IMG/VR virus record: IMGVR_UViG_3300047547_000066
Span: 1-58,846 of that record
DNA length: 58,846 bases
Reading direction: 5' to 3' (one strand)
DNA from: a virus
Taxonomy: Duplodnaviria > Caudoviricetes
Made by a program: the position numbers and the translations under genes. Within the stretch, counting starts at the first letter, position 1. Each line of letters opens with the position of its first letter. Under the pieces are notes generated by a model, which saw only the letters and a list, made by a program, of their open reading frames with translations, was not told the origin of the DNA and searched no databases. Below, one piece after another: positions 567-23,693 of this stretch.

Positions 567-2561
567 TTAAAAAACGATATTATACAACATTGTTGCTTTT
601 CCTACAAGCACTTTTGCAACAATATTTTCACTATTTGTTGATGAGAAACCAATTCCGCTTAGTTGTTCATCTACACTCTGACACTTGGTCTTATCACCAA
701 GAATCTCAAACACCTTTCGATGTTTTTCCAGAGAAGGGTTCAAGAACTCATTGTAGATTCCCCGAGTTGAGTCTGGATTCTTGCAGCCTTCCAACATAAA
801 GAACCAATGCTTGTTCCCAACTGCATTGTCATCCCAATAGTTGGGCGAATACATCATTGTATTGACTCGAACAAATTCCTCTGTCTTCAGTCCCCATACG
901 TCCTGAGAAATAGAAGTTGACTTGATCCCATCAACAATATCAATTTCAGTGATTTTCTTACCCTTGACCTTGATGGTGCATACCTGAACTTGTCCTGAAA
1001 CAGACCTGTCATATGATAGATTAGTCAATGTACCTTGGTTTTCAACCTCAATCATGAAGCCAACATTGGATGATTCGCGTTTTGAGAACTGGTTAACATA
1101 TACTTGGTACTTCCCATCTAGTAGATTAGAAGAAATCCATGAAACGTTTTCAACTGGTTCACGAGTCTTACCATAACCAGCATTCATGTCAACATCAAGA
1201 CATCCAAATTTGTTGGCATAGTAGATATGATTTCCTTTTGGGTCTTTGATATGGATATCCAGATCGTCATGATTGAACCATGCCAGAGAAACTCGCATAG
1301 CAGCATTGGTGACATTACCACCAGCTTTCTTGACTTTTTCCTTGATAGAATCGGTAATGTTACCATTGTATGACCATGCAAAATCATTGTCCCACTTGAA
1401 TAGGGATTTAGAATCTGTATGCACAGGAGCAGTCAGACTCATTAGATTCTTCTGTTGTGAACCAGACAACAATAGTTCAATGGATGTTGCTTTCGGGAGA
1501 ATATCAGACATGAAAGAATCAATACTGATATCTTTTGTTTTCTTTGGGTCAACATCAACCTTTTTGGTTGCTGCATCAATCAGAATAGATTCAACACCAT
1601 CGCGCATCTTTCCCTTCACTGAGTTATCAACCCAGAGAACGTTGTTGACTGATACATCGGAAATCTTAGCAAATCGACGCTCAAGAGCACTTTCCAGACC
1701 AAGTTCAGTGATAGTCTTCATTGCATCCTGAACCATTCGAGGCGTAATGAGTGCAGTTGGTCGTTTATAGTTGGTTGGAGCAACTTTTGCTTCAAAAGAA
1801 CGCACTGACTTTTCCAGTTCAACACCTTCGGAGATATCCTGAATGAGAGTACCAATGACAGTGTTGCGGAAACGAGCACCAGTAGAGAATGCATTCCCTG
1901 AAATGAAGATGGAACGTTCCATATCAGTTTTCAGAGAATTGTATTTCTTCAGTAGGACATTGAATGAGTTGATTGCTGGCAGATGTTCCTCTCCACGATA
2001 CAGAGACTTGGATTGAATCAGATCAATCACATCATCAATGGCACCAACAGAGAGTTCTTTCAGGCCACGAGAAAACACCTGAATCGCAGAGTTGTAATCA
2101 CCAATAACAGTACCAACAGATTTGGTGTAATGTTTGGCATCAACAATGCCATAGAAATGGTTCCAATTGATTACGGTGGTACCAACCAATTGAGAAGTTT
2201 TCTGAGAACCATATTGCTTTTCAGACACTCGGAAAAGTGAAGTGATCGGTGTCGATACAACCAGATCATTGAGTTCTTTGGCAACGATGTTGAATGGGTA
2301 TTCCAGATCAGCGATATCCCAGATGGAATGAAGTTTACCATCAACAATGGCTACAACAGGACCAATATTGCGAATGAAATTCTTGCAGCAAGAACAATCG
2401 TATTCTGTACGAGTCTTATAGATATTGTTGGTGCCTTCTGGGAATGATTTGAGATATGTATCCCATAGAGCATCACCCGATACAGTAACAAACAATTCCC
2501 CCTTGGAGAGTTGCATGAAACGTTCGTTTACTTTTTTGGCAAATGGTGCAAAGTCAGTCAT
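567..2561 (-). CDS. Large phage protein with C-terminal YfaP/DUF2135-like domain
   Basis: 664-aa ORF; motif VSLAWFNHDDLDIHIKDPKGNHIYY...LDVDMNAG...PVENV resembles YfaP/DUF2135; N-terminal CSCC. Confidence 0.6.
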   Translation of the reverse strand: MTDFAPFAKKVNERFMQLSKGELFVTVSGDALWDTYLKSFPEGTNNIYKTRTEYDCSCCKNFIRNIGPVVAIVDGKLHSIWDIADLEYPFNIVAKELNDLVVSTPITSLFRVSEKQYGSQKTSQLVGTTVINWNHFYGIVDAKHYTKSVGTVIGDYNSAIQVFSRGLKELSVGAIDDVIDLIQSKSLYRGEEHLPAINSFNVLLKKYNSLKTDMERSIFISGNAFSTGARFRNTVIGTLIQDISEGVELEKSVRSFEAKVAPTNYKRPTALITPRMVQDAMKTITELGLESALERRFAKISDVSVNNVLWVDNSVKGKMRDGVESILIDAATKKVDVDPKKTKDISIDSFMSDILPKATSIELLLSGSQQKNLMSLTAPVHTDSKSLFKWDNDFAWSYNGNITDSIKEKVKKAGGNVTNAAMRVSLAWFNHDDLDIHIKDPKGNHIYYANKFGCLDVDMNAGYGKTREPVENVSWISSNLLDGKYQVYVNQFSKRESSNVGFMIEVENQGTLTNLSYDRSVSGQVQVCTIKVKGKKITEIDIVDGIKSTSISQDVWGLKTEEFVRVNTMMYSPNYWDDNAVGNKHWFFMLEGCKNPDSTRGIYNEFLNPSLEKHRKVFEILGDKTKCQSVDEQLSGIGFSSTNSENIVAKVLVGKATMLYNIVF

Positions 2562-2587: not shown

Positions 2588-2616
2588 ATTGTATATGTTA
2601 TTACATCAGATGTCAA
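2588..2616 (-). promoter_or_regulatory. sigma70-like early promoter
   Basis: TTGACA-17nt-TACAAT upstream of the 664-aa gene. Confidence 0.7.
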
Positions 2617-3436
2617 CAACTTTGTTCAAGTCAAATCCGTCTGATAGTTCATACCCATCATATCCACGAGGGTTGCATACAATCCTTGTCGAACCAATAT
2701 AATAATCATTTGCATGATGTATATGACCATGAGTCCATAGAGCAATTTTTGGATTGTCCAGAATCAATTCACTTAGATCACTTGCATATGCGCCATTCAT
2801 AATGAAATCATCCACATAGACAGGATGAATTGACTTATATGATGGGGCATGATGCGTCACAACGACAACCTTTTCAGCATCAGTATCACGAATAGTATTT
2901 TTGATATACTTTACTGTGTCAACATGGCGACGATATGTTGTGATTGGTGCCAGTTTGGAATATCCCTTAATCTCATCACGAATAACCTTATAGTCATTCA
3001 TCGAATCTCTGATAAGGGATAGAGTGATGGGGTCAGACTTGTTCATATCAGTCCACATAGTACCACCAACGAAAAGAACATCCTTGATTTTTACAGAGCT
3101 TCTTTCAAGGAAATGGATACCAAACTCGGATGTCTCATCTGTAAGGATATCAATCGTCTTTGACCATTTTCCATGATAGTGTTCATGATTCCCAGCAACA
3201 TACACAACATGTTCAAATTCGGATGCAACGTTCTTAAAGAAAGAACGATACATGTATGCACTTTCCTGACGTTTTCCAAGGTTGACTATTGGTGGAGTTT
3301 CTGTATGTGGATGATCGTATAGGTCTGATGCAACACAGATATCACCAGATAGAACTAATACATCCGCACCAGTTGCATTCTTGATTTCAATGCCGCCAAA
3401 TTCTAGATGAAGGTCACTTACAATTTGTATTTTCAT
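2606..3436 (-). CDS. Calcineurin-like metallophosphoesterase
   Basis: SDLH, GDI, GNHE, VTHHAP and HGHIH motifs; start refined to MKIQIVSD. Confidence 0.9.
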   Translation of the reverse strand: MKIQIVSDLHLEFGGIEIKNATGADVLVLSGDICVASDLYDHPHTETPPIVNLGKRQESAYMYRSFFKNVASEFEHVVYVAGNHEHYHGKWSKTIDILTDETSEFGIHFLERSSVKIKDVLFVGGTMWTDMNKSDPITLSLIRDSMNDYKVIRDEIKGYSKLAPITTYRRHVDTVKYIKNTIRDTDAEKVVVVTHHAPSYKSIHPVYVDDFIMNGAYASDLSELILDNPKIALWTHGHIHHANDYYIGSTRIVCNPRGYDGYELSDGFDLNKVVDI

Positions 3437-3441
3437 TTTTT

Positions 3442-3678
3442 TCATGCAATGTTTAGTTGAACACTTAGACCTTCCCAAGTACCAGCGATACCACAAGCAC
3501 ATTGATCTGCAACACCTGTACCACTTTTTGTGAATTCAAGAGCATCAAGTGCCTTTTGTACAGCAGCATTACATTTATAAAAGTCACCAACACCATTTCG
3601 AATACTTTTTGCAGTTGCATAGAAGCATGTAGAGTCAACAATTACGCGAAATTTAGTAGTTTGTTTGAAGCGGTACAT
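3442..3678 (-). CDS. Hypothetical protein
   Basis: Likely start MYRFKQ with SD (AAGGA); the longer upstream extension overlaps a structured RNA-like region. Confidence 0.6.
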   Translation of the reverse strand: MYRFKQTTKFRVIVDSTCFYATAKSIRNGVGDFYKCNAAVQKALDALEFTKSGTGVADQCACGIAGTWEGLSVQLNIA

Positions 3679-3735
3679 AATATTGTTTCCTTGTGTGGTT
3701 ATTGTAACCCACGCTAGAATGAATGTCAATACATT

Positions 3736-3883
3736 CATTGTTAAACATGCTGTCCCAGACTCAACCCTACATCTGGCGTTCTCCCATATGGTCTGAAGCG
3801 TACCACTGGTTGCGGAGACATCTTGTTCCAATCTACCCATCTGCTTCTACGGATAGTGGGATGCAACAGCATGCTTAATAATG
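3736..3883 (-). ncRNA. Putative multi-branch structured RNA
   Basis: Long closing stem (CATTATTAA-GCATGCTGT / ACAGCATG-TTTAACAATG) with three internal hairpins. Confidence 0.5.
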
Positions 3884-3995
3884 ATGACTGGCTGGAGGTG
3901 CCCTACTCCGTGGATAGTTTAACATGTTAGCTAGACATTTTCACTATCGGTTTATTGTTCTACTCCGCCGAGTATACTCAACCCACTACGTTCTT

Positions 3996-4199
3996 TTAAT
4001 CGCCAGTCATCAAACTCTTTATATCAAATATCCATTGATCGACGGTAAGACTAGAAATCTTCCTTACCATTATTGATGTATTGTACATCAACTCTGAATC
4101 TTTACCAACAACATAGAAGTAACCATTCCCTCTGACGAGTTCTAGGTTGATAGAAAGCTCCATCAACCTTTTGTTTACTTGTTTCAGTGTTGTCGCCAT
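3996..4199 (-). CDS. Hypothetical protein
   Basis: 67-aa ORF directly downstream of a sigma70 promoter. Confidence 0.6.
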   Translation of the reverse strand: MATTLKQVNKRLMELSINLELVRGNGYFYVVGKDSELMYNTSIMVRKISSLTVDQWIFDIKSLMTGD

Positions 4200-4206
4200 G
4201 ATTGGT

Positions 4207-4234
4207 ATTATACACTGAGCAGATTATTTGTCAA
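4207..4234 (-). promoter_or_regulatory. sigma70-like early promoter
   Basis: TTGACA-16nt-TATAAT. Confidence 0.65.
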
Positions 4235-4244
4235 CTCTTTTTGA

Positions 4245-4354
4245 TTTGTGTTCCGGAGTTGCACCGGTCTTTCTTCATGCTGTTCCCAGACTATTGCGGA
4301 ATCGAACCGCCTTTCGACATCAACGGCACGTGCTACTGTTACACTAAACACAAA
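4245..4354 (-). ncRNA. tRNA-like RNA with expanded anticodon arm containing a second T-loop hairpin
   Basis: TTTGTGTT/AACACAAA acceptor-like stem, D arm TAGTGTAACAGTAGCAC, T arm CCGG-TGCAACT-CCGG, internal GCGG-TTCGATT-CCGC. Confidence 0.6.
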
Positions 4355-4357
4355 AGC

Positions 4358-4432
4358 TGGCGGGTGAGGTAGGATTCGAACCCACAACTTGTCCTTGGCA
4401 ATGATATGTGTTACCACTAGCACCACACCCGC
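4358..4432 (-). tRNA. Degenerate/pseudo tRNA-Gly (GCC)
   Basis: GCGGGTG/CACCCGC acceptor, D arm, TTGCCAA loop, GTGGG-TTCGAAT-CCTAC T arm; mismatched anticodon stem and 2 extra nt before the acceptor 3' strand. Confidence 0.6.
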
Positions 4433-4459
4433 ATAACTGTATATATCTAGATTCTTTAC

Positions 4460-4606
4460 CATAATTCAGTACACTCCCAGTTGGCTGTCAATTCAACTGT
4501 AGGTATTAGTGTGTTACCCCGAGCATTACCTTGCAAGACTATTCTCGTTCTGGCACACCTGTCGTGGAACCTGAAACCCCGTAAGACAGAAATGTACTGA
4601 ATTATG
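4460..4606 (-). ncRNA. Stem-bracketed RNA unit A
   Basis: Perfect 14-bp inverted repeat CATAATTCAGTACA/TGTACTGAATTATG enclosing several hairpins. Confidence 0.6.
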
Positions 4607-4608
4607 TC

Positions 4609-4737
4609 GACCCATTGTGGTCTAGGATTCGAACCTAGAATCTCTTGCGCTCTACCATTAAGCTACCGGCCTTTACAGACCGGATGGGATTCGAACCCAT
4701 ATCTCTTGCGTCCTCCCGCTTGAACGACTCACGGGTC
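4609..4737 (-). ncRNA. Anticodon-less double tRNA-elbow RNA (D-T-stemloop-D-T)
   Basis: Two D arms and two GGTTCGAATCC T arms, each D joined to T by GCAAGAGAT; central hairpin CCGGTC-TGTAAA-GGCCGG; ends GACCC/GGGTC pair. Confidence 0.75.
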
Positions 4738-4781
4738 ATCGGGTTAATTACTCCCGATTATAGCAACTGATGATCAGTCAA

Positions 4782-4886
4782 TTACCATATTGAAGAACAC
4801 TACGGTCAGCTGCTCCCGTAAGACCTATAGGCAATACTCCTGGGTGTTAACCCCGCAGGTATAGGATTTATTCTTCAATATGGTAA
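4782..4886 (-). ncRNA. Stem-bracketed RNA unit B
   Basis: Perfect 16-bp inverted repeat TTACCATATTGAAGAA/TTCTTCAATATGGTAA. Confidence 0.6.
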
Positions 4887-4971
4887 CTTGCCACTCCACC
4901 TTAGGAAGCCGACCCATTGATACTATCGCCGAGCCAGCGAGGGATCGAACCTCCTGGACTTATTTCATTAC

Positions 4972-5066
4972 CATATTTGAGAACACTCCCTTACCCCGAT
5001 GATGTTATCGTTGGACAGCAAGTATCTCTCCTGCTTTTCTATGATGGATGAGTGTTCTCAAATATG
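4972..5066 (-). ncRNA. Stem-bracketed RNA unit C
   Basis: Perfect 17-bp inverted repeat CATATTTGAGAACACTC/GAGTGTTCTCAAATATG. Confidence 0.6.
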
Positions 5067-5191
5067 CTCACTGTGATAACTCTATTTCATCAAAAAGCAC
5101 AGTGAAACATGTCTCAACTGCATTACCAACTGCCCCATGCTCGGCAAATAAAAGTTGGCTTTCTGTTGATGATTTGATGTTATGATTGCAA

Positions 5192-5267
5192 CCATATTGA
5201 AGTACATTTGGCCGTCACATTGTTAGGGGCTAGTCCAAAGAATACCCGCAAATGTACTTCAATATGG
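5192..5267 (-). ncRNA. Stem-bracketed RNA unit D
   Basis: Perfect 19-bp inverted repeat CCATATTGAAGTACATTTG/CAAATGTACTTCAATATGG. Confidence 0.6.
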
Positions 5268-5332
5268 CACCCAACTCCCTAAAGCTGGGTTCCACAGTCT
5301 TTGAATCTCGGCATAAAATAAATTTATGTTGT

Positions 5333-5478
5333 TCCGGTGAACTTGGACGACGATCCTCATGCTAGAAATCCGTAGGTAACGGCGCAACTCGTTACTCTAT
5401 TTTAACCAACCGCTGTTAGTGCGGTTCACCGAAGTGTGCTGCTGGCTCCATAGGGATATAGAGTAACAAGCATGGCGG
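5333..5478 (-). ncRNA. Putative pseudoknotted RNA at the 5' end of the RNA array
   Basis: Stems CTTGTTACTCTAT/ATAGAGTAACGAG and CATGCT/AGCATG plus a crossing CGGTGAAC/GTTCACCG pairing. Confidence 0.5.
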
Positions 5479-5488
5479 GACAAACTCT

Positions 5489-5515
5489 ATTATACACTAA
5501 AACTTACTATGTCAA
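5489..5515 (-). promoter_or_regulatory. sigma70-like promoter upstream of the RNA array
   Basis: TTGACA-15nt-TATAAT (short spacer). Confidence 0.55.
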
Positions 5516-5662
5516 CTCTTTTTCTATGGTTTGTGAGCTTTCCACTCACTCGCTGGTTTGCCAACACCGTTCAGTTGTCTAACAATTAAGCAGATTTTAC
5601 TGCACTCTTACGAGCAAAGGTTGCCACAGACTATTATACCACACAATCTACAAGTTTCTTTC

Positions 5663-5935
5663 TCACTCATTAAATTTTTTCTTGAACATCTCAATCAACT
5701 TAATAACTTCTGCCTTTGCACCAACCCTCATGGCAACAGACCTAGCACTCTCATTAGGTTCAGTCTGAACGCCATTCAAATTATACCATTCTTTCTTCAA
5801 CAAGTTGATAGATTCTTGAATGAATAATTCTGCAAATAGATTCTTATCAAATTCATAAGAAACCGAATCCCAGTCACGTTCATGGTGCCTTTCTACGGTA
5901 GCCTTTTCGATAAGATTTTTAACCAGATCATTCAT
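5663..5935 (-). CDS. Small early protein, MNER/FAELI paralog family (divergent)
   Basis: MNDLVKNLIEKA...LFAELFIQE. Confidence 0.7.
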   Translation of the reverse strand: MNDLVKNLIEKATVERHHERDWDSVSYEFDKNLFAELFIQESINLLKKEWYNLNGVQTEPNESARSVAMRVGAKAEVIKLIEMFKKKFNE

Positions 5936-23618: not shown

Positions 23619-23693
23619 TGCTCCCCGACTTGGATTTACACCAAGATCTACAGTTTATCAGGTCTGTTGCTCTACTAACTGAGCTATCGAGGA
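23619..23693 (-). pseudogene. Degenerate tRNA-Asn paralog with GAT-containing enlarged anticodon loop
   Basis: Acceptor and D arm nearly identical to the adjacent tRNA-Asn; altered anticodon arm, T loop GGTGTAAATCC, no CCA. Confidence 0.65.

What the first reader, a model, noticed from the sequence alone, without database searches (positions are those of the whole stretch)
3690..5515. Dense array of diverse structured non-coding RNAs and tRNA mimics
Seen: ~1.8 kb with only one small credible ORF. It holds a pseudoknot-capable RNA, four stem-bracketed units, several T-loop (GGTTCGA) elements, a double-elbow RNA, a degenerate tRNA-Gly and a tRNA mimic, all co-oriented downstream of TTGACA/TATAAT at 5489-5515. 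It is separate from the real tRNA cluster at 23 kb. Known: T4-like phages encode stable RNAs of unknown function near tRNAs, and anticodon nucleases and RNA-sensing defences target tRNA. Inference: a polycistronic RNA operon processed into decoy or sponge RNAs, possibly an undescribed RNA-based counter-defence or host-takeover module.
Basis: partly seen in the sequence, partly recalled or inferred. Interest (0 to 1): 0.88.

Follow-up and report, generated by a model that had tools for sequence, protein, structure and literature searches.

The report
Phage array of tRNA-linked small RNAs
A freshwater T4-like phage carries about 1.3 kb without genes that is packed with conserved tRNA-like RNAs and long-stem hairpin RNAs of a widespread, apparently undescribed phage family, whose function is still unknown.

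Summary
On the minus strand, between a perfect TTGACA/TATAAT promoter (5515-5489) and a second one (4234-4207), lie four perfect-stem hairpin units, a two-elbow tRNA-like RNA, a degenerate tRNA-Gly, three further T-arm or minihelix elements, and no credible ORF. These are not orphans. The four hairpins belong to a family found here in 142 unique copies on uncultured T4-like phage contigs. Its roughly 18-bp helix starts at the encoded CCA of the tRNA directly upstream and closes on ...AUAUGG. The arms covary, and interiors fall into more than 100 types. Units B and D, the two-elbow RNA and the leader RNA each have orthologues in other phages, with compensatory changes. Rfam 15 matches only tRNA (marginally) and part of YrlA (below threshold). 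No Ro/TROVE gene was found in 11 records.

Best reading (about 0.5): a remodelled tRNA-operon module. Small stable RNAs are cut out of a polycistronic early transcript by tRNA-processing enzymes, and perhaps RNase III. The tRNA-like parts survive as processing handles, not decoders.

An anticodon-nuclease decoy is disfavoured because the anticodon arms are the parts that are lost. No RNA data exist. Interest 0.68.

The parts
5489..5515 (-). Promoter P1 (TTGACA-N15-TATAAT) with a 14-nt upstream box identical to that of P2. A small stem-loop lies just upstream.
   Evidence: (D9, D14)
5268..5482 (-). Leader RNA S0. It ends in a 7-bp minihelix (5290-5269) followed by G and then the CCA that opens unit A.
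   Evidence: Homologues in L162 (nhmmer E 2.7e-11) and L189. Of 32 predicted pairs, 14 carry compensatory changes among 3 sequences. The 5' part folds at z -2.6.
5192..5267 (-). Hairpin unit A: 19-bp perfect helix, 38-nt interior.
   Evidence: z -4.8. No orthologue of the interior found.
5067..5191 (-). Spacer element S1. It ends in an 8-bp hairpin followed by G, directly before unit B.
   Evidence: Read from the sequence. Fold z -0.27. No homologue.
4972..5066 (-). Hairpin unit B: 17-bp perfect helix, 61-nt interior.
   Evidence: z -5.7. Orthologue at L128 3453-3549: the interior differs at 1 position, the arms differ in a compensatory way.
4887..4971 (-). Element S2, with a T-arm-like hairpin (T-loop motif at 4951-4941).
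   Evidence: Fold z -0.34. No homologue.
4782..4886 (-). Hairpin unit C: 16-bp perfect helix, 73-nt interior. The CCA is at 4883-4881.
   Evidence: z -4.2. No orthologue of the interior found.
4738..4781 (-). Two small hairpins ahead of the tRNA-like RNA. The second (4758-4738) has a conserved 9-nt loop.
   Evidence: Conserved with compensatory stem changes in L175, L084 and L060 (two copies).
4609..4737 (-). Two-elbow tRNA-like RNA. It comprises a closing stem with a 3-nt AAU bulge, D-arm 1, T-arm 1, an acceptor-like hairpin, D-arm 2 and T-arm 2. Neither half has an anticodon arm.
   Evidence: Rfam YrlA 34.2 bits (4703-4649) and tRNA 30.4 bits (4667-4618). Fold z -3.1. Family of 5 sequences with 25 pairs, 13 of them compensatory. 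nhmmer also aligns it to a real tRNA-Leu/tRNA-Met tandem.
4460..4606 (-). Hairpin unit D: 14-bp perfect helix (20 pairs if one mismatch is allowed), 119-nt interior.
   Evidence: (z -2.9). Orthologue at L122 4098-4249, where it lies between tRNA-Arg and a real tRNA-Gly.
4360..4432 (-). Degenerate tRNA-Gly (GCC-type loop). The anticodon stem keeps 3 of 5 pairs, 2 extra nt precede the 3' acceptor strand, and no CCA is encoded.
4240..4359 (-). Element S4b, with a T-arm (motif at 4308-4298) and a small stem-loop just ahead of P2.
   Evidence: No tRNA-model match at E of 10 or less. Fold z +0.5. No homologue.
4207..4234 (-). Promoter P2 (12 of 12 consensus positions), driving the 67-aa ORF.
3996..4199 (-). 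67-aa ORF, a real gene of unknown function.
   Evidence: phrog_9154, E 5.2e-17
3735..3884 (-). Long-range stem-closed element of a different arm type. It lies just upstream of promoter P3 (3729-3701).
   Evidence: Inverted repeat I3: 19 nt, 89% complementary. Fold z -2.2. No homologue.

Best explanation
The stretch 5515-4240 (minus strand) is a remodelled copy of the accessory-RNA part of the tRNA operons carried by this clade of freshwater T4-like phages.

Proposed steps:
1. Host sigma-70 RNA polymerase transcribes the stretch early, from P1, as one precursor.
2. The precursor alternates between two kinds of element. One is a tRNA-shaped or minihelix element (S0 end, S1 end, the two-elbow RNA, the degenerate tRNA-Gly). 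The other is a 'clamped' small RNA, whose 5' and 3' ends are held in a conserved helix of about 18 bp. That helix begins at the CCA that follows the upstream tRNA-like helix.
3. The tRNA-like elements act as punctuation. They keep the acceptor/T/D features recognised by RNase P and by the 3'-end machinery, and they have lost the anticodon arms needed for decoding.
4. Cleavage at these handles releases the clamped RNAs as exonuclease-resistant species. Host RNase III cutting within the helix may contribute.
5. The conserved interiors, which are GC-rich for this genome, are the working parts. Their target, protein or RNA, is unknown.
6. The shared arms also serve as portable homology, through which modules are swapped between phages.

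Shown: the anatomy, the family membership, the covariation, the conservation of interiors and the module shuffling. Inferred: transcription, the processing enzymes, the stability of the products and any action in trans.
For: Family:
- 142 unique hairpin units were collected from 200 phage loci plus the window. They share an 18-bp helix in which positions 7, 8, 11, 12, 14-16 and 18 covary.
- In the 116 of 142 units that are in register, 84.2% of cells at positions 7-20 are paired. With partners shuffled the figure is 68.6% (maximum 71% in 1000 shuffles).
- G.U cells number 153 and A.C cells 57, of which 38 are at one position. This points to an RNA read on the tRNA strand.

Link to tRNA ends:
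- 92 of 142 units start within -2 to +4 nt of the end of an ARAGORN-called tRNA, so the CCA is shared.
- 55 of the 126 units that have a downstream tRNA end 12 nt or less before it.

Same alternating layout with real tRNAs in relatives:
- L060: tRNA-Gln, unit, tRNA-like, unit, tRNA-like, unit, an unclassified element, unit, tRNA-Ser.
- L122: tRNA-Arg, unit D orthologue, tRNA-Gly.
- L175: tRNA-Leu, unit, two-elbow RNA, unit.

Interiors are conserved, so they are not filler:
- Unit B against L128: 1 difference in the interior, while the arms differ in a compensatory way.
- Unit D against L122.
- Over 40 orthologous pairs, interiors are 85% identical and arms 70%.

tRNA-like parts keep the elbow and lose the anticodon arm. 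The degenerate tRNA-Gly descends from a real one.

Promoters: 5 exact consensus sites against 0.17 expected, all on the minus strand.

Module shuffling at the arms, seen in other metagenomes: a contig joins 4783 to 5191 with 12 shared letters, and another contig holds the same modules in a different order.

The family is phage-specific in the data searched. Of 106 tRNA+motif sites in bacterial and archaeal genomes, 0 have a long-interior hairpin; the 10 hairpins found are short and terminator-like. All 4 complete carrier genomes encode Gp23.
Against: - There is no expression or end-mapping data. No RNA run holds the stretch, which is a blank and not evidence either way.
- No processing enzyme is encoded by the phages examined: RNase III 0 of 5 records, CCA-adding enzyme 0 of 5. 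Every processing step therefore rests on assumed host enzymes.
- Units A and C, and elements S1, S2 and S4b, have no detected orthologue. S1, S2 and S4b fold no better than shuffles.
- The four window interiors are not more stable than shuffles (z of -0.14 or higher). They may be unstructured loops, or they may be filler.
- Compensatory arm differences between orthologues could come from interior swapping by double crossover, not from stepwise compensation.
- The 120 loci L081-L200 were fished with a T-loop+CCATAT pattern. This inflates the share of units that follow a tRNA.
- The relatedness of the sequences inflates the shuffle statistics.
Confidence: 0.5

Rival explanations
1. Punctuation and recombination scaffold only. 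The hairpins are RNase III-type processing stems and portable homology (PeSL-like) between tRNA-type genes. Their interiors have no function of their own.
For: - Helices of 17-21 pairs dominate the family.
- Units exactly fill inter-tRNA spacers in 55 of 126 cases.
- Joints between module orders fall in the arms.
- There are 104 interior types among 136 units, 83 of them singletons.
- Interiors are barely more structured than shuffles (mean z -0.52).
- PeSL motifs are known to mediate shuffling in T4-like phages (abstract of PMC4122927).
Against: - Orthologous interiors are better conserved than their arms (85% against 70%). Unit B has 1 change in about 65 nt, although its flanks are unalignable.
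- A tetraloop would be enough for a processing stem.
- Only a minority of tRNAs are followed by a unit (83 units after 1406 tRNAs in L081-L200), so the units are not general punctuation.
Confidence: 0.2
2. First reader's idea. The released RNAs and tRNA mimics are decoys or sponges that blunt tRNA-targeting or RNA-sensing host defences, or that soak up host small RNAs.
For: - Very high interior diversity on a constant frame, as expected in an arms race.
- Interiors have 49% GC in a genome of about 40% GC.
- Units preferentially follow tRNA-Gln, Glu and Lys. From recall, these are the classic targets of anticodon nucleases.
- From recall, tRNA-spacer RNAs act as sRNA sponges in E. coli. Only a search listing was seen.
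Against: - No defence or target link was found.
- The tRNA mimics lack, or have broken, the anticodon arms that anticodon nucleases cut.
- There is no antisense match beyond chance to the 58.8-kb window.
- No neighbouring protein is conserved with the units, apart from a metallophosphoesterase found in 6 of the 120 loci L081-L200.
Confidence: 0.12
3. Y-RNA-like ribonucleoprotein. The conserved helix binds a ring- or clamp-type protein (a host Ro60/Rsr or an unknown phage protein), and the interior or tRNA-like domain tethers an effector, as YrlA does.
For: - Partial YrlA match (34.2 bits, E 4.7e-5).
- A long conserved terminal helix with a variable or tRNA-like interior. 24 of 142 interiors contain a T-loop motif.
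- Passages of PMC4201824 describe Y RNAs as a long stem plus a large loop, with a tRNA-like domain.
Against: - The score is far below the gathering threshold of 69.
- No TROVE gene was found in the window or in 10 related records, 5 of which are complete genomes. YrlA is defined by its adjacency to Ro60.
- The YrlA-like piece is not the part that carries the conserved CCAUAU helix.
Confidence: 0.06
4. Decaying remnant. The stretch is a tRNA cluster that is eroding after duplication or relocation, with no present function.
For: - Degenerate tRNA-Gly.
- ARAGORN finds no tRNA in the region.
- Several elements have no homologue and no fold signal.
Against: - Four helices are perfectly paired over 14-19 bp.
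- Consensus promoters are intact.
- Interiors match distant phages at 85-98% identity.
- Near-identical copies persist in several freshwater metagenomes.
Confidence: 0.08

Closest known systems
Phage T4 stable RNAs rnaC and rnaD (species 1 and 2 RNAs) in the T4 tRNA region
   Same: They are small RNAs of unknown function, encoded within or next to the tRNA cluster of a T4-type phage and on the same strand as the tRNAs (annotation of NC_000866). rnaC carries a T-arm near its 3' end.
   Different: nhmmer finds no similarity at E of 1 or less between rnaC or rnaD and the window or the 200 loci. Neither has the CCAUAU...AUAUGG terminal helix. In this window the array lies 18 kb away from the real tRNAs.
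YrlA / bacterial Y RNAs (Rfam RF02553)
   Same: A tRNA-like module in which a T-arm, an acceptor-like hairpin and a D-arm follow one another. The Rfam match covers model positions 28-81 of 114. The general logic is also shared: a long terminal stem plus a variable or tRNA-like domain (passages of PMC4201824).
   Different: The score is 34.2 bits against a gathering score of 69. There is no Ro60/TROVE gene nearby or anywhere in 11 records. The phage RNA has two elbows, a conserved AAU bulge and two upstream hairpins that YrlA is not described as having.
PeSL promoter/stem-loop cassettes of T4-like phages
   Same: They are short conserved motifs, repeated in hyperplastic regions, at which unrelated modules are exchanged by homologous recombination (abstract of PMC4122927). 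Here the hairpin arms and the 14-nt promoter box are repeated, and contigs from other metagenomes join modules at the arms.
   Different: PeSLs flank protein-coding ORFs and are terminator-plus-promoter composites. The arms here form an 18-bp RNA helix around a 38-119-nt non-coding interior and are fused to a tRNA CCA end.
RNase III processing stems (rRNA operon stems, T7 early mRNA sites), recalled and not tested
   Same: Long helices formed by sequences that flank a functional RNA inside a polycistronic transcript. Several related copies occur in one phage genome.
   Different: No cleavage data exist. The helix sequence is conserved across many phages, and its first three bases are a tRNA's CCA. 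The phages examined encode no RNase III (0 of 5).
tRNA-linked non-coding RNAs released by tRNA processing (E. coli tRNA-spacer sponges; herpesvirus tRNA-hairpin chimeras), recalled; only a search listing was seen
   Same: A small RNA that lies directly 3' of a tRNA or tRNA-like structure and depends on tRNA-processing enzymes for its ends.
   Different: Different organisms and no sequence relation. Here there is a constant helix with more than 100 interior types.

Membership tests
tRNA (RF00005) | Score above the curated threshold, and detection by a tRNA finder | tested here: inconclusive
   4667-4618 scores 30.4 bits and 4430-4361 scores 29.7 bits, against a gathering score of 29. ARAGORN calls neither.
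tRNA (RF00005) | Intact anticodon arm and a 7-bp acceptor stem that ends in discriminator plus CCA | tested here: not met
   In the Rfam alignment, 4667-4618 lacks the anticodon arm and has a 3-bp acceptor stem. 4430-4361 has non-standard pairs in the anticodon stem. Read from the sequence, it has 2 extra nt before the 3' acceptor strand and no CCA.
YrlA / Y RNA (RF02553) | Covariance-model score at or above the gathering score | tested here: not met
   34.2 bits against 69. Only model positions 28-81 of 114 are matched.
YrlA / Y RNA (RF02553) | Encoded next to a Ro60 (TROVE) gene | tested here: not met
   PF05731 finds nothing in the window record or in 10 related phage records, 5 of them complete. 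The control genomes give hits. The window record is only about 33% complete.
YrlA / Y RNA (RF02553) | Ro60-binding helix formed by the 5' and 3' ends | not testable with these tools
   A closing stem with an AAU bulge exists and covaries. Whether it binds any protein is unknown.
T4 rnaC / rnaD | Sequence or profile similarity to the T4 RNAs | tested here: not met
   nhmmer finds no hit at E of 1 or less in the window or the 200 loci.
CCAUAU-clamp hairpin family (defined here) | A helix of about 18 bp with the family consensus, starting with CCA after a purine and closing on AUAUGG | tested here: met
   Units A and C meet it fully. B and D start with CAUAU/CAUAA, so they lack the first C. Family matrix.
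CCAUAU-clamp hairpin family (defined here) | Placed directly 3' of a tRNA or tRNA-like helix, on the tRNA strand | tested here: met
   In the window each unit follows a helix plus 1-2 nt: the S0 minihelix, the S1 hairpin, and the closing stem of the two-elbow RNA. No such helix was seen before unit C. Family-wide, 92 of 142 units follow a tRNA.
PeSL cassettes | Early promoter plus stem-loop composite that flanks swapped ORFs | tested here: inconclusive
   P1 and P2 share a 14-nt box and an 11-nt -10 box, and each has a small stem-loop upstream (read). They flank RNA modules and one small ORF. No alignment to published PeSLs was made.
Known self-cleaving ribozymes, riboswitches and large ornate RNAs in Rfam 15 | Any match at E of 10 or less | tested here: not met
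   The scan of 3300-5900 lists only YrlA, tRNA twice, and two chance-level rows (E 2.2 and 7.7).

The most novel reading that the evidence does not exclude
The CCAUAU-clamp RNAs are a phage-specific platform for small RNAs.
- A constant 18-bp helix, fused to a tRNA's CCA end, lets host tRNA-processing enzymes excise and stabilise the RNA.
- It carries a large, fast-turning-over repertoire of interior sequences: 104 types among 136 units sampled.
- T4-like phages swap these interiors by recombination at the arms.
- They would use them in trans to manipulate the host, whether for take-over, sponging or counter-defence.

On this reading the window's array is a four-cassette example in which the flanking tRNAs have been reduced to bare processing handles.
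Probability: 0.3. Interest if true: 0.85.

Novelty: new variant of a known kind. Interest (0 to 1): 0.68.

Why it matters
Since the 1970s, T4-type phages have been known to make small stable RNAs beside their tRNAs, and no function has been assigned to them.

This window, read together with its relatives, shows that one large clade of uncultured freshwater T4-like phages holds a whole system of such RNAs:
- a constant helix tied to tRNA 3' ends;
- more than 100 different interiors;
- tRNA-like RNAs with one or two elbows;
- evidence of cassette-like exchange.

None of this is in Rfam 15. That turns a vague old puzzle into a defined, testable family with clear sequence handles. If the interiors act in trans, it would be a new layer of phage-host interaction carried by tRNA operons. 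If they do not, the helix is still a new and widespread signal for processing or recombination of phage tRNA clusters.

Tried and rejected
- Close relatives among 50,697 named phage records. Searches with the region found no match (megablast, blastn). A related array matched only through its tRNA-Gln. A single hairpin unit gave only chance-level rows. BLAST's low-complexity filter may hide the AT-rich arms.
- Expression. No RNA holder is listed for the stretch.
- Ro60/TROVE: 0 of 11 records. Phage RNase III and CCA-adding enzyme: 0 of 5 records each.
- Antisense targets of the four interiors within the window: the longest matches are 10-12 nt, no better than shuffles.
- Conserved protein neighbours. 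tblastn with nine window proteins against the 200 loci recovered only the metallophosphoesterase, in 80 of the 80 loci fished with it and in 6 of the other 120.
- Pfam and NCBIfam gave nothing for the 664-aa, 77-aa and 67-aa proteins.
- T4 rnaC and rnaD: no similarity.
- Intrinsic-terminator reading of the hairpins: rejected. The 10 hairpins found after tRNAs in cellular genomes are short (41-56 nt) and terminator-like. The phage units have 38-220-nt interiors and often lie 12 nt or less before the next tRNA.
- New ribozyme reading: rejected, because no interior core is conserved across the family.
- Literature. Searches turned up no description of this hairpin family. Fremin et al. 2023 (PMC10690425, passages read) predicted 8,495 structured RNAs from IMG/VR. 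Their supplementary models could not be opened, so the family may already be listed there without a name.
- The 'pseudoknot-capable RNA' was not tested.
Full report
**Setting.** The window is one IMG/VR virus record of 58.8 kb, judged about 33% complete. It encodes UvsW-type helicase, a T4-type DNA polymerase and NrdA. Its best named relatives are T4-like phages of Pelagibacter, Synechococcus and Methylophilales, at about 40% protein identity. Runs that hold the DNA are labelled freshwater metagenomes. Genes around the finding are on the minus strand.

**What is there.** Reading the minus strand from 5700 down to 3600, the elements come in this order:
- A small stem-loop, then promoter P1 (5515-5489), which is an exact TTGACA-N15-TATAAT.
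- A 215-nt leader RNA, S0. It ends in a 7-bp minihelix followed by G and CCA.
- Hairpin unit A (5267-5192).
- Element S1.
- Unit B (5066-4972).
- Element S2, which has a T-arm.
- Unit C (4886-4782).
- Two small hairpins.
- A two-elbow tRNA-like RNA (4737-4609).
- Unit D (4606-4460).
- A degenerate tRNA-Gly (4432-4360).
- A T-arm element, S4b.
- Promoter P2 (4234-4207).
- A 67-aa ORF that is a real gene (phrog_9154).
- A further stem-closed element (3884-3735).
- Promoter P3 and the next ORF.

**Is it more than chance?**
- Exact consensus promoters occur 5 times in the window, all on the minus strand, against 0.17 expected.
- The looser scan shows no enrichment: 11 sites against 10.8 expected.
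- The four units are perfect inverted repeats of 19, 17, 16 and 14 nt, with fold z-scores of -4.8, -5.7, -4.2 and -2.9.
- The T-loop motif GGTTCGAWYCC occurs 5 times, all here, against 0.01 expected.
- ARAGORN finds tRNAs only at 23.0-23.9 kb.
- Rfam gives two marginal tRNA matches in the region (30.4 and 29.7 bits, threshold 29) and a partial YrlA match (34.2 bits, threshold 69).
- S1, S2 and S4b fold no better than shuffles.

**The hairpins are a family.** Loci fished with the neighbouring metallophosphoesterase showed the same kind of hairpin inside tRNA clusters. The 5' arm begins with the CCA that directly follows the discriminator base of a tRNA.

Of the 123 testable sites, 62 closed into a helix of 14 pairs or more ending in ...ATATGG.

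Pooling all loci gave 142 unique units:
- The helix is about 18 bp long. Positions 1-6, 9, 10, 13 and 17 are nearly constant. Positions 7, 8, 11, 12, 14-16 and 18 covary.
- In the 116 units that are in register, 84.2% of cells at positions 7-20 pair. With 3' arms dealt out at random the figure is 68.6% (maximum 71% in 1000 shuffles). At position 7 the figures are 97% against 46%.
- G.U cells outnumber A.C cells 153 to 57, and 38 of the A.C cells sit at position 8. This favours an RNA helix read on the tRNA strand.
- These sequences are related, so the shuffle figures overstate significance.

**Where the family occurs.**
- All 4 complete carrier genomes examined encode the T4 capsid protein family Gp23.
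- In bacterial and archaeal genomes, 106 tRNA+motif sites exist. Only 10 form hairpins, all of them short and terminator-like, and none has a long interior.
- Named phage records gave no match.
- Rfam on 12 carrier loci listed only tRNA, one tmRNA and two group I introns among the 150 rows shown. A further 29 lower-scoring rows were not shown.

**Interiors.** The 136 interiors of 25 nt or more fall into 104 clusters, of which 83 are singletons. Yet where orthologues exist they are well kept:
- Unit B and L128 3453-3549 differ at one interior position, while their arms differ at several positions in a compensatory way.
- Unit D matches L122 4098-4249. There it lies between tRNA-Arg and a real tRNA-Gly, the same neighbour order as in the window.
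- Over 40 such pairs, interiors are 85% identical and arms 70%.

Interiors have about 49% GC in a genome of about 40% GC. They are only slightly more foldable than shuffles (mean z -0.52). The four window interiors are not more foldable at all. No antisense target appears in the window.

**tRNA-like RNAs.** The two-elbow RNA has a full-length orthologue in L175 and single-elbow relatives in L084 and L060 (two copies). Shared features are:
- two upstream hairpins with a conserved 9-nt loop;
- a closing stem with an AAU bulge;
- 13 of 25 predicted pairs showing compensatory change.

nhmmer also aligns it to an ordinary tRNA-Leu/tRNA-Met tandem. This suggests descent from a tRNA dimer that lost both anticodon arms.

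The degenerate tRNA-Gly is 81% identical to a real tRNA-Gly. It has a broken anticodon stem and no CCA.

S0 has homologues in L162 and L189, with a covarying terminal minihelix.

**Population data.** Contigs from other freshwater metagenomes match parts of the array at 80-99% identity. They carry the modules in other orders. One contig joins 4783 directly to 5191 through 12 letters shared by two arms.

**Reading.** The simplest account is a tRNA-operon-type precursor in which tRNA-shaped handles punctuate clamped small RNAs. The parts needed for recognition by processing enzymes are kept, and the parts needed for decoding are lost.
- Host RNase P, a 3'-end activity and perhaps RNase III would do the cutting. 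The phages examined encode neither RNase III nor a CCA-adding enzyme.
- Conservation of interiors argues that they do something.
- Their diversity, and the shuffling at the arms, recall the PeSL cassettes of T4-like phages (abstract).
- The decoy/sponge idea remains possible but has no direct support. An anticodon-nuclease decoy fits poorly.
- Membership in YrlA fails on score and on the absence of Ro60.
- T4 rnaC and rnaD are analogous by position only.

**Limits.**
- There are no RNA data.
- The fishing pattern biases the tRNA-adjacency counts.
- Supplements of the one large IMG/VR RNA survey could not be read.

Noticed in passing
L001-L200: Hairpin units follow tRNA-Gln, tRNA-Glu and tRNA-Lys far more often than other tRNAs. 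In the loci fished without any RNA pattern, 8 of 8 tRNA-Gln genes are followed by a unit, and 9 of the 9 tRNA-preceded units follow Gln or Glu. In L081-L200, 59 of the 83 tRNA-preceded units follow Lys, Glu or Gln, which make up 204 of 1406 tRNAs. From recall, these three tRNAs share the modified wobble uridine and are classic targets of anticodon nucleases. The cause could be conserved gene order or function.
   Followed up: partly
window 2606-3448 (-), and L076 about 4311-4850: A calcineurin-type metallophosphoesterase (phrog_1649; Pfam Metallophos, E 8e-9) lies just downstream of the RNA array. In many relatives it lies beside tRNA clusters. From reading, L076 appears to carry a second, different phosphoesterase-like ORF inside its tRNA cluster; this was not checked with a family search. 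A role in healing RNA ends is possible but untested.
   Followed up: partly
window 23621-23693 (-): Rfam calls a fifth tRNA here (50.4 bits) that ARAGORN misses. It closely resembles the neighbouring tRNA-Asn but has an 8-nt anticodon loop and an altered T-loop in the Rfam alignment. It may be a frameshift-type or decaying paralogue.
   Followed up: no
L178 10381-10779 (-): A carrier phage encodes a tmRNA (permuted-tmRNA model 120.7 bits; betaproteobacterial tmRNA model 107 bits), directly after a tRNA and a hairpin unit. This hints at betaproteobacterial hosts for part of the clade.
   Followed up: no
L081 926-1123 and L162 13185-13378: Group I introns (56.9 and 53.4 bits) lie inside the tRNA arrays of two carrier phages.
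   Followed up: no
window 567-2561 (-): A 664-aa protein matches phrog_1735 over its full length (E 5e-242). It has no Pfam or NCBIfam family and no known function, and it lies two genes downstream of the array.
   Followed up: no
L023 17-2302: In a relative, the real tRNA-Gly lies between a 2OG-Fe(II) oxygenase gene, which itself follows a DUF2828/DUF7788 protein gene, and an RNase H-like (PF04308) gene.
   Followed up: no
hairpin family, helix position 8: An A.C mismatch is kept in 38 of 142 units, in the arm pair CCAUAUAAAAAC / GUUUCUAUAUGG. The G.U intermediate is rare at that position (5 units).
   Followed up: no
window 4270-4290 and 3745-3760 (-): A 15-16-nt box, GUCUGGGA(A)CAGCAUG, recurs about 30-40 nt upstream of the -35 elements of promoters P2 and P3 (D16).
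   Followed up: no
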